A model generated the notes under the pieces. That model did not search any database. It was not told the origin of the DNA and was given only the letters and a program-made list of their open reading frames with translations. DNA of 64,000 nucleotides from a virus, in the IMG/VR virus record IMGVR_UViG_3300028030_000008, positions 21,700 through 85,699 of that record. One strand, given 5' to 3'. Positions 26,213 through 43,602 of this stretch are shown piece by piece; position 1 is the stretch's first letter; each line of letters starts with the position of its first letter. A program made the position numbers and the translations under genes.

Positions 26213-26279
26213 CGCGGTGCGTCCGCCGACATACTGAGGCTTGTTTTTTATTCACAAAGCCCCTGTTATACCAACAATA

Positions 26280-26604
26280 AGCCCGGCCCAACCGTCTCAG
26301 GGGAGATGAGTGGTCACAAATACCTGCAAACCAAGATGCTAACCGTGAGGGAACGCCACCGGGAGAGGCCGGAAAATTCTTGGAAAGACGCGGAAATGCG
26401 AGAGTGTGGACAATTAGCTTGAGAGTGCCACGACATGCAGCGGATAAAGCGATGAAACTTGGAGATAGGCCCCAGGTGGAGCAGAGGGAGTTCTGGTAAC
26501 ATCAGGAATGATGTGCAATGTAAATCCGAGCCGGGGTTGTTAAACCAGAAGCCTGAAAAATAGTGGCGGATAGCCTGTGCAAATCGCACAGGGGAGCATG
26601 GGCT
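26280..26604 (+). ncRNA. Unidentified structured RNA, copy A
   Basis: AGCCC/GGGCT closure, many internal stems, blocks shared with 41368 copy. Confidence 0.6.
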
Positions 26605-40005: not shown

Positions 40006-41074
40006 TCCAACAATCAGTGGCCTTGTCGCCGCAACAGAGGAAGATTGGGGCGATACTAAACAAAATGTCGAAGATGCGATACGGTATCGCATTAAGCCAA
40101 TTGACGACGCCTTGTTTGGTATCAACATGAGAGACGGCGAAATGATAGGCGTCCACGCCGTCAAAAAGATGAGAAAGTCAACTCTTGTCCTCAATCTTGT
40201 TCTAGGTTTTGCTCATCAGCTAAAGGGAAGGTCGGAGGGGTATTGGGTGTGCGCCGACACACTGGAATCCGGTATGCCACCACAGGCGTATCGAGACAGC
40301 CTTATCGCTATGGCTGCTACAAGGTTGCTTGTGTCTAGGTTTTACGGGAATGACAGGGATAAATGGCCTAGCGTTGAAACGATAAAGGCTCACCCAGAGC
40401 TTGGCCCGATGATGAACATATCTCGTGAGTTTTTCTTGTACGGGAGACGAACACCGGAACAACAGGAGGCAATCGAACTTGCGAAAAGAGCGGTTGCAAG
40501 TATGCCAATCTCAATATTTGGCGCGGCGTCTTTTCAGGGAAAAACACGGAACGTTGATGCTACGGTAAAACGGTGGTCTGAGTTATATCACGGGAAGTAT
40601 ATTCATCGTCACAAGATTGGTGGCGAGATTAAAGAAGTTGATATGACTGGCTTGCATCATAGAATATTTAGCACTGACCACATTTCTCAACTATCAGGCT
40701 TTGGTGCATCGTCTTTCGAGATGCAAGAGACGGTTGTCAGTAAGTACGCTGAATTTTGCACTGAGCATCCTGGCTCTGTTGTTATTGCTGTTGGACAGAT
40801 TGGCTCTAGCTCTGCTAAAGACGAGAAGCGCGGCTTCGGAGATGCAAACACAAAGGGTGGTACTGCCCTTGCTGCCGAAGTGACGGTTTTATTCCGTACT
40901 GAATACGATAAGGACAAGTCACCGTTCAAAATGAAGATTTGGGTGCAAGATACGCGCAAAAGGCCGCCGCCGCCGATTATTCAGGATATAGATGACCAGT
41001 CTGGCGCGTTTCTTGGGACAAGAGTTGCAAGGAATGGAGAGGAAGGTGGTGTAAGGATAGATAGAAGATATTAA
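39992..41074 (+). CDS. DnaB/RecA-fold helicase-like protein, degenerate Walker A
   Basis: IDDALFG..GEMIGVHAVKKMRKSTL, TLES, TDHIS, VGQ. Confidence 0.6.
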   Translation: MRLFNPTISGLVAATEEDWGDTKQNVEDAIRYRIKPIDDALFGINMRDGEMIGVHAVKKMRKSTLVLNLVLGFAHQLKGRSEGYWVCADTLESGMPPQAYRDSLIAMAATRLLVSRFYGNDRDKWPSVETIKAHPELGPMMNISREFFLYGRRTPEQQEAIELAKRAVASMPISIFGAASFQGKTRNVDATVKRWSELYHGKYIHRHKIGGEIKEVDMTGLHHRIFSTDHISQLSGFGASSFEMQETVVSKYAEFCTEHPGSVVIAVGQIGSSSAKDEKRGFGDANTKGGTALAAEVTVLFRTEYDKDKSPFKMKIWVQDTRKRPPPPIIQDIDDQSGAFLGTRVARNGEEGGVRIDRRY

Positions 41075-41131
41075 CCTTTAGCAATAATTTCCTGTATTAG
41101 TTTTGACAATAAATGAAAGGAGGTGTACAAT

Positions 41132-41368
41132 ATGGGTGTGAGACAGACTAGATTACCTAAAGGTGTGAAAGCAAGACCAATTACGGCGAATTTACCGGAG
41201 GATTTGTATAATCGCCTGCTTGAGCTTGCGCGTAAAAATAGACGCTCCATGAGCGCCGAGGCTACTTTTGCAATCGAGGAGTACCTTAGCGAATACGAAT
41301 GGGCGACTAACAAGCCTTGGATAACTAAAAATTCTTTTGACAAAACCCCCGCCATAGAAGATAAATAG
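41132..41368 (+). CDS. Arc/RHH DNA-binding protein
   Basis: ITANLPEDLYNRLLELARKNRRSMSAEA; promoter TTGACA(41103)-17-TACAAT. Confidence 0.8.
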   Translation: MGVRQTRLPKGVKARPITANLPEDLYNRLLELARKNRRSMSAEATFAIEEYLSEYEWATNKPWITKNSFDKTPAIEDK

Positions 41369-41575
41369 CCCTCCGCCCCAACCATCGCGGGGGCGATGAG
41401 TGGGCGCGGATAAACGCGATTGCTTGCAACGCGCATCCTCTCGATGATTTTGACCGTTTCTGCTGCTGTGATTACGCCCTGGTTTTGGCCTCCGGGGAAA
41501 CGAGGCAGGGGAGAGTCGTAGCCGTAGGAATACGGCGCGTGTACACAGAAACCGAGCATGTTAAGCGACTGGCTG
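41368..41575 (+). ncRNA. Unidentified structured RNA, copy B (interrupted by IS; 3' end at about 42936-42946)
   Basis: Homologous blocks to 26280 copy; several hairpins. Confidence 0.6.
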
Positions 41576-42935
41576 GTCAACTACATATCGACTAAAAGTC
41601 GGTAACTTGCCCGTCCGGTTGAAAACCGGCTAAAGAATTAGCCGAACCAGCGTGCTTAAGGGGCGGTTGACACGCCCCATCACCGACCAGGTCTTGCCTG
41701 GCGATGATACCGCGCAATCTAATGTTGCGGGCGGCATTTAGGTCAGAATTAGCAGAGTAACCGCAAGCTCCACACTTAAAATTATGACGCTTACGATTAG
41801 ACTTGGCAACAAAACCGCATACAGAACAACCCTGAGACGTGTGCTTTGGATCAATCTTGATGACCTCAAAGCCTTCGCTTCTGGCTTTGTAGCTAATAAA
41901 TTCATCAAGTTGATAGAAAGCCCATTGATTAAGGTCAGTACGGAACGCCTTACGCAGTTTGCGTCCCTTCCTGATACCCTTCAAATCTTCAAGGGCAATC
42001 ATTGGGTCGCCAGTCTCTTTAGCAAACTCAATAATGCGCTTACTGATAACGTGATTTGTATTCTTGGTAAAACGCGCTTGCTTTCCGCTTTGCCGTTTCA
42101 GAACGCGCCTGATGGAGCGCGTGTTCTTCTGTGCCTTCTTCCTTTGGAGGCTAGAGCGCGTTTTTTGATAGCGACCTCTAACGTGTTTCGTTTGACCGCC
42201 GCCAAAAAACAAACTACGTTTACCATCGGTCACAACAGCAAGATTGTTAATCCCCCTGTCAATACCGATAACCGCATCATTTGGCTTGCTAATTTCCGCT
42301 ACTTCCTTTTTGAACGTTACGGAAAGAAATACGCCGCGCCTGGAAACGTGAAGCCTTGCATCTCCAAGCTGCCAATCAGCAAGATATTCTTGCAACTTGG
42401 GTTCACCCTGAAATGTGACCCCTTTAATTCTGCCTGCGGTAGTCCAGATACTAAGGCCGGTTTTCTTGAAACCGAAGTCCCGTTCACGCGCCCCGCCTTG
42501 AAGCACAACCGCCGCATTTTTGAAATGTATTGGCTTCTTTGGCATCTTTTTGGCGGTACGCATTGCCTTGTACTTGGATGTAACGAACCTGAACAGGCTG
42601 CCAGTTACTTGCGCGGACAATCCGTAATCGGCCTTAACCTGATGGTAAATCAGCTTATGCAGCTTTACAGGATTAAGGATATTACCATTATCAAAAGCTA
42701 CCTTACTGGCAAAGTTACAAGCATCATTCCATGCCCTGATAGTGTCAATGGCGGTTTGCCTGTCAAGATTTATTTTAATCTTTGTAGCGCGTATAATATC
42801 CATATAGTAATTATAGCACAAGCTATAGGGATATGCAAATATATTATTGCGAGGCTGGGAAGTTACCCAAACTACGGGCGACCCGCTATCCCCCGTATCG
42901 CTTAAAGGCGGTAGTTCCTCGCGGGGGGAAAGACT
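41576..42935 (-). mobile_element. Non-autonomous IS200/IS605-family (tnpB-only) element
   Basis: Right end hairpin CGACT-ttt-AGTCG then GTAGTTGAC; left-end-like hairpin about 42885-42930; no tnpA; left boundary approximate. Confidence 0.75.
41592..42803 (-). CDS. tnpB: TnpB RNA-guided nuclease
   Basis: IGIDRG, IALEDL, TSQGCSVCG..CGACG, NSDLNAARNI; RuvC D-E-D intact. Confidence 0.95.
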   Translation of the reverse strand: MDIIRATKIKINLDRQTAIDTIRAWNDACNFASKVAFDNGNILNPVKLHKLIYHQVKADYGLSAQVTGSLFRFVTSKYKAMRTAKKMPKKPIHFKNAAVVLQGGARERDFGFKKTGLSIWTTAGRIKGVTFQGEPKLQEYLADWQLGDARLHVSRRGVFLSVTFKKEVAEISKPNDAVIGIDRGINNLAVVTDGKRSLFFGGGQTKHVRGRYQKTRSSLQRKKAQKNTRSIRRVLKRQSGKQARFTKNTNHVISKRIIEFAKETGDPMIALEDLKGIRKGRKLRKAFRTDLNQWAFYQLDEFISYKARSEGFEVIKIDPKHTSQGCSVCGFVAKSNRKRHNFKCGACGYSANSDLNAARNIRLRGIIARQDLVGDGACQPPLKHAGSANSLAGFQPDGQVTDF

Positions 42936-42972
42936 ATAGAGAGGGTGCGCCCGTTGGTTGAAAGGAGTGCAA

Positions 42973-43602
42973 ATGAATACATACCATAAAATTCAAACCG
43001 TTTTTAAGCGAGACCCAAATAACAAATACAAGACACTGTTACTCGGCGAATACGCATTAAGGGAATTTGAGTATCTTGCCAACAACGAGTGGGTTTTCAC
43101 TGAAAAGATTGATGGTACAAACATCAGAGTGATGTTCGATGGAGAAAGAATTACATTTGGCGGCAAAACTGACCGCGCTCAAATTCCAGCGCCTCTTGTT
43201 GCCCGGTTGAATGAGGTGTTTTTACCGGAGACAAGCTTATTCAAGGAAAAGTTCCCTGATGGAGTATGTCTGTACGGGGAGGGGTATGGCGCAAAAATCC
43301 AGAAAGGTGGAGGAAACTATCGCCAAGACCAAGACTTTGTTTTGTTTGATGTAAAAATTGGAGATTGGTGGTTACAGCGCGAGGATGTTCACCAAATAGC
43401 AATTGAGCTCGGGATTGACGTTGTGCCAATTATTGGCAGTGGAACGTTGCCGGAAATGGTTGATATTGTTTCTAGGGGATTTAATTCGACTTGGGGTGAT
43501 TTTGTTGCGGAAGGCATTGTTGCTCGCCCGAAAGTAGAATTAAAAACTCGTGGCGGTAATCGAATTATCACAAAAATAAAGCACAAAGATTTCACGAAAT
43601 GA
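42973..43602 (+). CDS. RNA ligase (Rnl2-like nucleotidyltransferase domain)
   Basis: TEKIDGTN, LYGEGYG, FVLFDV, AEGIVARP, TKIK. Confidence 0.85.
   Translation: MNTYHKIQTVFKRDPNNKYKTLLLGEYALREFEYLANNEWVFTEKIDGTNIRVMFDGERITFGGKTDRAQIPAPLVARLNEVFLPETSLFKEKFPDGVCLYGEGYGAKIQKGGGNYRQDQDFVLFDVKIGDWWLQREDVHQIAIELGIDVVPIIGSGTLPEMVDIVSRGFNSTWGDFVAEGIVARPKVELKTRGGNRIITKIKHKDFTK

What the first reader, a model, noticed from the sequence alone, without database searches (positions are those of the whole stretch)
41368..42946. Intact TnpB inserted in the ncRNA; its guide is the ncRNA locus itself
Seen: right end ends ...GTAGTTGAC at 41576, so the predicted guide is CAGCCAGTCGCTTAACATGC (antisense 41575-41556). 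Removing about 41576-42935 brings GCCCTC (41368) next to GAGGGT (42941), restoring the closing stem. RuvC residues are intact, tnpA absent. Established: TnpB guides come from right-flank DNA and cut IS-free alleles. Inference: homing-like weapon against sibling phages with the intact ncRNA; TAM tentatively CTAT.
Basis: partly seen in the sequence, partly recalled or inferred. Interest (0 to 1): 0.7.

Follow-up and report, generated by a model that had tools for sequence, protein, structure and literature searches.

The report
TnpB-only jumping gene in vent phage

Summary
Window 41576-42935 (minus strand) is a complete tnpB-only (IS1341-type) element of the IS200/IS605 family. It has an intact 403-aa TnpB (D182/E272/D354 and a four-Cys zinc finger). 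Its omega-RNA scaffold is supported by covariation and ends exactly at 41576. It has a left end with its own promoter, and the 85.7-kb phage record holds no tnpA.

The predicted guide (41575-41556) and the TAM (CTAT, 42939-42936) have two independent supports. All eight homologous elements carry CYAT just outside the left end. Sibling phages in two other vent metagenomes leave the window exactly at 41575/41576 and show CCAT at that junction.

Two parts of the interpretation are not shown.
- The 208-nt flank is a GC-rich, ORF-free spacer with only weak structure signals, no Rfam family and no relatives outside this phage, so "ncRNA" is unproven.
- Beyond the junction the siblings' DNA is unlike the window's right flank, so the "restored stem" allele was not seen.

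Homing against sibling phages is plausible but untested. It is already proposed in the literature, and this scan has noted it many times on other DNA. Verdict: a new member of a known kind, of modest interest.

The parts
41576..42935 (-). Whole tnpB-only IS200/IS605-family (IS1341-type) element, 1,360 bp
   Evidence: Right-end limit from homolog conservation and from the break in sibling contigs at 41575/41573. Left-end limit from the CYAT motif conserved outside the left end in 8 homologs and from CCAT at the sibling junction. The left limit is uncertain by about 2 nt.
42936..42939 (-). TAM / target motif CTAT (reads ATAG on the + strand), immediately 5' of the left end
   Evidence: C[C/T]AT lies 7-13 nt upstream of the conserved left-end box in L051, L053, L055, L080, L081, L082, L084 and the window. 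Sibling alleles read ...CCGCCCAT|CAGCC on the minus strand.
42804..42935 (-). Left end (132 nt): conserved box CCGCGAGGAAC, a subterminal hairpin region, and the tnpB promoter (TTTGCA-18-TATAAT with TG, 42839..42810). The ATG lies 6 nt after the -10 element, so the mRNA is probably leaderless.
   Evidence: Left-end alignment with homologs; promoter scan.
41592..42803 (-). tnpB, 403 aa, RuvC D182/E272/D354 and CxxC...CxxC zinc finger intact
   Evidence: Pfam, PHROG 506, PDB Cas12f/TnpB matches, 1,521 homologs with 100% query cover in the closest ones, residues checked.
41576..41759 (-). Omega (right-end) RNA scaffold. It overlaps the last ~168 nt of tnpB and adds 16 nt beyond the stop codon.
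   Evidence: RNAalifold on 10 homologs: 37 pairs, 22 with compensatory changes. The covariance model R1 matches 41759..41576 at 127 bits and nowhere else in the window; the window sequence is one of the ten it was built from, so that match is by construction.
41556..41575 (-). Predicted guide / self-flank CAGCCAGTCGCTTAACATGC (first 16-20 nt after the right end)
   Evidence: Position follows from the right-end limit plus established TnpB biology. The sequence occurs once in the window and in the whole record, allowing up to 3 mismatches.
41369..41575 (+).
   Evidence: 53-55% GC against 41-50% around it. No ORF, tRNA or Rfam family. Fold z about -2. The first ~65 nt recur at about 26254-26320. 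96-97% identical in sibling phages.
42936..42972 (+). Right flank: 37 nt up to the RNA-ligase ATG (42973). It includes GAGAGGGTGCGC (42939-42950), complementary to 41431-41442, and the ligase Shine-Dalgarno GGAG.
   Evidence: Duplex of spacer with right flank -37.3 kcal/mol against -30.2 +/- 3.0 in shuffles (23 of 1000 as good) and 6 of 754 genomic 37-mers as good.

Best explanation
Window 41576-42935 is a complete, probably active, tnpB-only insertion sequence of the IS200/IS605 family (IS1341 type). It lies on the minus strand in the non-coding spacer between a ribbon-helix-helix gene and an RNA-ligase gene of an uncultured hydrothermal-vent phage. Shown by sequence: an intact TnpB, a covariation-supported omega-RNA scaffold ending at 41576, a left end with its own promoter, a CTAT motif outside the left end, and no TnpA in the phage. 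Inferred from established TnpB biology: the omega RNA reads on into the flank, giving a 16-20 nt guide CAGCCAGTCGCTTAACATGC. TnpB would then cut any DNA that carries C[C/T]AT followed by that sequence, which is the same site in phage genomes that lack the element. The phage's own copy is spared because the right end (..TTGAC) stands where the TAM would be. With no transposase of its own, the element most likely persists and spreads by this cut followed by recombinational repair from an element-bearing genome during co-infection (non-restorative homing). Where the TAM-side flank is too diverged for repair, the cut would simply damage the competitor. The flanking 'ncRNA' is best read as a structured spacer or leader, not as a demonstrated RNA gene.
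For: Family and integrity. Omega RNA: conservation in 11 homologous loci ends at ...TGA(C/T), which is window 41576; 22 of 37 helix pairs covary. Model R1 shows no second copy in the window; its 127-bit match at 41759..41576 is to one of its own training sequences. TAM: CYAT lies outside the left end in all 8 non-redundant homologs. Sibling alleles: contigs from two other runs and studies, X2 and X3, are 94-100% identical over 40600-41575. They have no cover in the element, and they leave the window at 41575 and 41573 to continue with ATGGGCGG(T/C)GTACCGAATTTTTGCAAAA. That places CCAT directly beside the guide-matching target. No tnpA and no second tnpB in the record. The guide is unique in the genome. 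Clade behaviour: in L053/L054, two related viral contigs with a homologous element at one site, the element is 98.9% identical and its flanks 92.9% and 86.9%. Run X4 holds tnpB pieces at 98-99% identity while its related phage flanks are 88-94%. Concept: PMC13565253 and the abstract of PMC10690162 describe TnpB as a homing endonuclease that cleaves vacant sites, and name co-infecting phages as possible targets.
Against: No cleavage, RNA or expression data exist. The siblings' 41-51 nt beyond the junction are unlike the window's right flank. The window-minus-element allele was therefore not observed, and repair-based homing into these siblings would lack nearby homology on that side. Sibling X3 has C for T at 41574, which is guide position 2 in the TAM-proximal seed and may block cutting. 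The other mismatch positions in the X2/X3 targets were not listed. The sibling evidence rests on short, low-depth Logan contigs. The left-end limit has no isogenic empty site. The window's left-end hairpin looks weaker than those of the homologs. No empty sites were found for any clade member in IMG/VR or JGI.
Confidence: 0.6

Rival explanations
1. Passive passenger. The element hopped into the phage from a host chromosome, using a host TnpA in trans, and merely rides along. TnpB has no effect on phage-phage competition and the element is on its way to decay.
For: No tnpA in the phage. The nearest chromosomal homologs, at 55-60% identity, are in Chloroflexota genomes. The element is antisense to the phage genes and sits in non-coding DNA, where insertion is cheap. 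The left-end hairpin is imperfect.
Against: Every functional part is intact: the nuclease triad, the zinc finger, the omega helices and the promoter. The element is 98-99% conserved in run X4 against 88-94% for the phage flanks. A homologous element is far more conserved than its flanks in L053/L054. The sibling target with a TAM exists.
Confidence: 0.27
2. The flank is a discrete functional ncRNA gene that the element has split, and TnpB is a weapon aimed specifically at phages that keep that RNA intact.
For: GC-rich, ORF-free 208 nt. Complementarity across the insertion point is better than in most shuffles, with a 12-bp helix and p about 0.01-0.02. A conserved ~65-nt head with a hairpin recurs after another small RHH-like gene at about 26254-26320. 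The spacer is 96-97% conserved in siblings.
Against: No Rfam family at any threshold. The z-scores are weak. No homologs exist outside this genome, so covariation cannot be tested. Similarity to the paralog fades after ~65 nt. The 3' strand of the proposed closing helix is absent from the sibling alleles.
Confidence: 0.1
3. The 208-nt flank belongs to the element itself, as a long omega RNA or the relic of a second element. The true right end would then lie near 41369 and the guide would be elsewhere.
For: The flank is GC-rich and structured like an omega RNA and abuts the element.
Against: Homolog conservation and every covarying helix stop at 41576. The omega model finds nothing in 41369-41575 or in the paralog. 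The siblings keep 41417-41575 at about 97% identity while lacking the element.
Confidence: 0.02

Closest known systems
IS1341-type (tnpB-only) members of the IS200/IS605 family, with ISDra2 TnpB and its right-end/omega RNA as the studied model (Karvelis 2021 and structures 8BF8/8EXA from my own knowledge; PDB matches)
   Same: An OrfB_IS605 plus zinc-ribbon RuvC nuclease; an omega RNA that overlaps the 3' end of tnpB and ends at the right end; a guide taken from the flank; a short TAM outside the left end; no inverted terminal repeats.
   Different: The protein is only distantly related to ISDra2 TnpB (E 7e-9; it is nearer to Cas12f-like chains, E 4e-31). The TAM appears to be CYAT rather than TTGAT. 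The element is carried by a phage and has no TnpA partner in the genome.
TnpB-driven homing ('peel, paste, cut and copy', and the 'non-restorative homing' of the 2026 OMEGA review, PMC13565253; IStron paper PMC10690162)
   Same: The element-free allele carries the TAM plus the guide match. The element-bearing allele is protected because the right end replaces the TAM. Spread is expected by break repair.
   Different: The recipients here would be co-infecting sibling phages. The review treats that case as theoretical, with experimental support only in plasmid populations. The siblings found here differ on the TAM side, so killing may outweigh copying.
Free-standing homing endonuclease genes of phages (T4 Seg/Mob; 'Nuclease genes occupy boundaries of genetic exchange between bacteriophages', PMC10448857)
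   Same: A selfish nuclease gene lying between conserved phage genes, exactly at a point where identity to relatives changes abruptly.
   Different: Target recognition is by RNA guide, not by protein. The boundary here rests on short metagenomic contigs.
Phage-borne tnpB of cyanophage A-1(L) (bioRxiv 10.64898/2026.02.14.705889)
   Same: A tnpB present in one phage and absent from its close relatives; a long open frame on the reverse strand of tnpB.
   Different: The A-1(L) copy is identical to host copies. No host copy of the present element is known.

Membership tests
IS200/IS605 family, IS1341 (tnpB-only) group / OMEGA TnpB | TnpB protein with OrfB_IS605 and a C-terminal zinc-ribbon (TNB) domain | tested here: met
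   PF01385 E 5.8e-12 and PF07282 E 5e-22, both above the curated cut-offs; PHROG 506.
IS200/IS605 family, IS1341 (tnpB-only) group / OMEGA TnpB | RuvC catalytic D-E-D triad and CxxC...CxxC zinc finger | tested here: met
   D182, E272, D354, C326, C329, C344 and C347 are present. D182 and E272 are kept in 36 of 36 homologs and D354 in 35 of 36. They align with Cas12f chain 9nzq.
IS200/IS605 family, IS1341 (tnpB-only) group / OMEGA TnpB | Structured omega RNA that overlaps the 3' end of tnpB and ends at the right-end boundary | tested here: met
   37 consensus pairs, 22 with compensatory changes in 10 homologs. Conservation ends at ..TGA(C/T), which is 41576. The R1 match of 127 bits is by construction, since the window is one of the model's training sequences.
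IS200/IS605 family, IS1341 (tnpB-only) group / OMEGA TnpB | Short conserved target motif (TAM) directly 5' of the left end; insertion without target duplication or terminal inverted repeats | tested here: met
   CYAT lies outside the left end in 8 of 8 homologs. CCAT abuts the target in sibling alleles. No inverted or direct repeat is seen at the ends. The absence of duplication cannot be proven without an isogenic empty site.
IS200/IS605 family, IS1341 (tnpB-only) group / OMEGA TnpB | No Y1 (HUH) TnpA in the element | tested here: met
   PF01797 is absent from the whole 85.7-kb record, while the control genomes gave matches.
IS200/IS605 family, IS1341 (tnpB-only) group / OMEGA TnpB | RNA-guided, TAM-dependent DNA cleavage | not testable with these tools
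   Needs a plasmid interference or in vitro cleavage assay.
Homing element (non-restorative TnpB homing between co-infecting phages) | Natural element-free alleles that carry the TAM plus the guide-matching target | tested here: inconclusive
   The X2 and X3 contigs break at 41575 and 41573 with CCAT at the junction. However, X3 has a mismatch at guide position 2, the other mismatch positions are unknown, and the TAM-side flank is unlike the window.
Homing element (non-restorative TnpB homing between co-infecting phages) | The element is more conserved than its flanks across diverged carriers | tested here: inconclusive
   Met for a clade relative: L053/L054 show 98.9% against 92.9% and 86.9%. 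For the window's own element there is only a hint, from two 151-nt X4 contigs at 98-99%.
   No Rfam match up to E=10 apart from noise. No homologs were found for a covariation test. z is about -2.
IStron (group I intron fused to an IS200/IS605 or IS607 element) | Group I intron core at the left end; insertion within a gene on the same strand | tested here: not met
   No group I intron hit. The element is intergenic and antisense to its neighbours.

The most novel reading that the evidence does not exclude
The element is an RNA-guided homing endonuclease working between co-infecting vent phages. On this reading, the abrupt loss of similarity to siblings exactly at its right end is a co-conversion scar: the element entered this lineage together with a foreign 5' end of the RNA-ligase gene. 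That would be a natural example of TnpB driving modular exchange of an adjacent phage gene. The seed mismatch in sibling X3 would be a resistance allele.
Probability: 0.25. Interest if true: 0.6.

Novelty: new member of a known kind. Interest (0 to 1): 0.33.

Why it matters
This is a clean, fully readable natural TnpB element in a virulent-looking phage of an extreme habitat. The TAM, the guide and a matching site in sibling phages can all be read from sequence. That gives a concrete, cheap test case for the idea that transposase-less TnpB elements survive in phages as RNA-guided homing or competition nucleases. The literature treats that idea as theoretical for phages. It also yields a candidate compact nuclease, probably from a thermophile, with an unusual CYAT TAM. 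It does not reveal a new kind of system, and this scan has already recorded many similar phage TnpB cassettes on other DNA.

Tried and rejected
1. Close relatives of the locus in public phage records: megablast found nothing, and blastn found only a 305-nt ligase match.
2. 48 IMG/VR loci with the RNA-ligase homolog: none shares the spacer, the RHH gene or the element. The 360-aa upstream gene has no relatives there.
3. Exact-pattern scans for the sibling junction, the RHH gene, the conserved spacer head, and the predicted empty sites of the L053 and L055 elements in IMG/VR and JGI metagenomes: all empty. These scans are exact-match only, so this is weak evidence of absence.
The DNA context of the closest TnpB proteins (P0003 at 78%, P0004 at 72%) could therefore not be read.
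5. Multi-copy comparison in four Chloroflexota genomes to fix the element ends: each genome has only one copy of this subfamily.
6. Spacer as a second omega RNA, tRNA/tmRNA, small protein gene or group I intron: rejected.
7. The sibling post-junction 30-mer was compared with the window's right flank and with the whole window: no similarity beyond chance.
8. An integron-type core (GTTAAGC at 41559-41565) as the cause of the homology break: rejected by my own reading of the sequence, because the siblings stay homologous for 10 nt past it.
9. Lack of cover of 42936-43278 in runs X2 and X3: contig holes prove nothing, so it is not used as evidence.
10. A sigma-70 promoter at 41337-41365 (TTGACA-17-GATAAA) heading the spacer: seen by eye, but it fails the scan's rule for the -10 element and is left open.
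Full report
WHAT IS THERE.

The window is part of an 85.7-kb IMG/VR virus record, about 90% complete. Its reads come from a hydrothermal-vent metagenome. Around the finding the + strand carries, in order:
- a DNA methyltransferase and two genes of unknown function;
- an 81-aa ribbon-helix-helix gene (41123-41368);
- a gene-free stretch;
- an RNA-ligase gene with its ATG at 42973.

Inside the gene-free stretch, on the minus strand, lies an ORF 42803..41592. It encodes a 403-aa protein with the Pfam domains OrfB_IS605 and Cas12f1-like TNB. The protein has 1,521 homologs; the closest are 78% and 72% identical, and many lie at about 60%. Its nearest solved structures are Cas12f and TnpB chains. 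The RuvC triad D182/E272/D354 and the four zinc-finger cysteines are present. They are invariant or nearly so in 36 homologs.

CHECK OF THE OBSERVATION.

- GTAGTTGAC is the reverse complement of 41576-41584.
- The 20 nt that follow on the minus strand are CAGCCAGTCGCTTAACATGC (41575-41556).
- GCCCTC is 41368-41373 and GAGGGT is 42941-42946.

The right end was then tested in two independent ways.

First, I collected homologous tnpB loci at 51-60% protein identity. Six came from IMG/VR contigs and five from Chloroflexota genomes (Caldilineales, Ardenticatenaceae). Aligning their 3' regions shows conservation running through the end of tnpB and stopping in every locus at ...TGA(C/T). In the window that point is 41576. 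The conserved stretch folds into five helices with 37 pairs, and 22 of those pairs show compensatory changes. A covariance model built from it aligns the window's own copy, one of its ten training sequences, at 41759..41576 (127 bits, as expected by construction) and finds no second copy in the window. This stretch is the omega-RNA scaffold.

Second, I laid public contigs on 40600-43600.
- Two runs from other samples and studies (X2, X3) carry a sibling phage that is 94-100% identical over 40600-41575.
- They have no cover inside the element.
- Their contigs leave the window at 41575 (X2) and 41573 (X3) and continue with ATGGGCGG(T/C)GTACCGAATTTTTGCAAAA.

LEFT END AND TAM.

Upstream of tnpB the homologs share a box (C)CGCAGGGGA, then a hairpin, then GGAATGC, then a sigma-70-like promoter close to the start codon. 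In all eight non-redundant homologs a C[C/T]AT lies 7-13 nt upstream of that box. Six have CCAT. L051 and the window have CTAT, which in the window is 42939..42936 on the minus strand. By my own estimate, a CYAT would fall within such a short stretch by chance in roughly one locus in five, so eight of eight is not chance.

Independently, the sibling alleles read ...CCGCCCAT|CAGCCAGTCGC on the minus strand. That places a CCAT exactly at the junction with the guide-matching target. A CYAT at one fixed position has a chance of about 0.8%.

The left limit stays uncertain by a base or two, because no isogenic empty site was found. The record holds no Y1 transposase and no second tnpB. The guide sequence occurs only at its own flank. 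This is an IS1341-type member of the IS200/IS605 family.

THE 'ncRNA'.

The 207 nt between the RHH stop codon and the right end (41369-41575) are GC-rich: 53-55% against 41-50% nearby. They hold no credible ORF, tRNA or Rfam family.

Folding gives z-scores of only -1.7 to -2.3. The minimum-energy fold of the joined sequence, however, uses GAGAGGGTGCGC (42939-42950) in a 12-bp helix with GCGCATCCTCTC (41431-41442).

The spacer and the 37-nt right flank are more complementary than expected. The duplex energy is -37.3 kcal/mol, against -30.2 +/- 3.0 for shuffles; 23 of 1000 shuffles and 6 of 754 genomic 37-mers do as well. The pairing includes CCUCC at the head of the spacer with the ligase Shine-Dalgarno GGAG. 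This fits a structured leader that the element has split, but it is no proof.

I confirmed a significant similarity (score 62 against a shuffle maximum of 49), but it is confined to the first ~65 nt. No copy exists in IMG/VR or in other windows of the scan, so covariation cannot be tested. I therefore call this a structured spacer or leader, not an established ncRNA.

Because the siblings' sequence after the junction is unlike the window's right flank, the 'restored closing stem' allele has not been seen in nature.

WHAT THE SIBLINGS ADD.

The sibling sequence after the junction reads ATG GGC GG(T/C) GTA CCG AAT TTT TGC AAA ATT, which translates to MGGVPNFCKI. The one X2/X3 difference is synonymous. 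The ending F-C-K-I resembles the Y-[HP]-K-I motif that opens this ligase family. A hint, no more: in the siblings the ligase may start right at the junction, with the TAM overlapping its ATG.

The element thus sits exactly where similarity to the siblings changes from about 97% to unalignable, for at least 41-51 nt. Protein homing-endonuclease genes in phages are known to occupy such exchange boundaries (PMC10448857). This is compatible with co-conversion of the ligase 5' end along with the element, but ordinary phage mosaicism is not excluded.

Sibling X3 has C for T at 41574, which is guide position 2. From general knowledge of TnpB seed sensitivity, that change could block cutting. The other mismatches of the X2 and X3 targets were not listed.

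Run X4 holds two 151-nt tnpB pieces at 98-99% identity, while its related phage flanks are 88-94% identical. This weakly suggests that the element is younger than the divergence of the backbones.

A clearer case of the same pattern comes from clade relatives. The viral contigs L053 and L054 carry a homologous element at the same site. The element is 98.9% identical between them and the flanks are 92.9% and 86.9% identical.

MECHANISM.

Shown: the anatomy, the intact catalytic residues, the conserved omega structure, the absence of a transposase, and the existence of element-free siblings with a TAM beside the target.

Inferred from established TnpB biology:
- The omega RNA extends 16-20 nt into the flank.
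- TnpB cuts CYAT-plus-target DNA.
- The carrier is immune because ..TTGAC replaces the TAM.
- The break is repaired from an element-bearing genome.

The basis for these steps is Karvelis 2021 and Meers 2023, from my own knowledge, together with the abstract of PMC10690162 and the review PMC13565253. The review lists 'non-restorative homing' into co-infecting phages or plasmids as a theoretical mode, with experimental support in plasmid populations only. Given the unlike TAM-side flank, cutting these particular siblings might kill them rather than convert them. My odds are about 0.6 for an active homing or competition nuclease and about 0.27 for a passive passenger.

COMPARISON AND NOVELTY.

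All testable defining features of an IS1341-type TnpB element are met; only the cleavage activity is untested. Phage-borne tnpB is known: PHROG 506 and cyanophage A-1(L). The homing idea is published, and this scan already holds about 196 notes of phage TnpB cassettes aimed at siblings on other DNA. This is a new member of a known kind. Its merits are a fully readable TAM, guide and target, sibling alleles from other vents, and a position on a mosaic boundary.

LIMITS.

The sibling evidence comes from short, low-depth contigs whose full sequences I could not fetch. No exact-pattern scan recovered further alleles.

Noticed in passing
window 41784-42905 (+), opposite tnpB; also L051, L052, L053, L055, L080, L081, L082, L084: A 373-aa ORF lies codon-for-codon antisense to tnpB. 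All 8 homologous tnpB genes keep a stop-free antisense run of 261-401 codons in the same frame. The window's tnpB has only 2 TTA/CTA/TCA codons against 13.9 expected from neighbouring phage genes. The ORF has no Pfam hit. It recalls the 'TnpB_rev' reverse-strand protein, with peptide evidence, reported for cyanophage A-1(L) and Anabaena.
   Followed up: partly
L037:3843-5570 (IMG/VR 3300025736_000211): The RNA-ligase homolog of another phage is interrupted by an intein carrying a LAGLIDADG homing endonuclease (Pfam Intein_splicing, LAGLIDADG_2). This ligase family attracts homing elements of more than one kind.
   Followed up: partly
L053:2409-3718 against L054: Two related viral contigs carry a homologous tnpB-only element at the same site. 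The element is 98.9% identical and the flanks are 92.9% and 86.9% identical. The first differences on the guide side fall at guide positions 2-3.
   Followed up: partly
window 42804-42839 (-) and the homologous left ends: The tnpB promoter (TTTGCA-18-TATAAT with an upstream TG) ends 6 nt before the ATG. Homologs show the same tight spacing, which suggests leaderless tnpB mRNAs in this clade.
   Followed up: no
window 41369-41374 and 42963-42966: CCUCC at the very start of the spacer can pair with the RNA-ligase Shine-Dalgarno GGAG in the element-free arrangement. This might be a translational control that the insertion has uncoupled.
   Followed up: no
window 41075-41340 as seen in run X4: One X4 contig matches both sides of the RHH gene but carries 265 unlike letters in place of 264 window letters. 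A more distant sibling therefore has a replaced or strongly diverged RHH allele of the same length.
   Followed up: no
window 41592-41594 against the homologs: In most homologs the tnpB reading frame runs on to the TGA that forms the very end of the right end. In the window it stops 16 nt earlier, at TAG.
   Followed up: no
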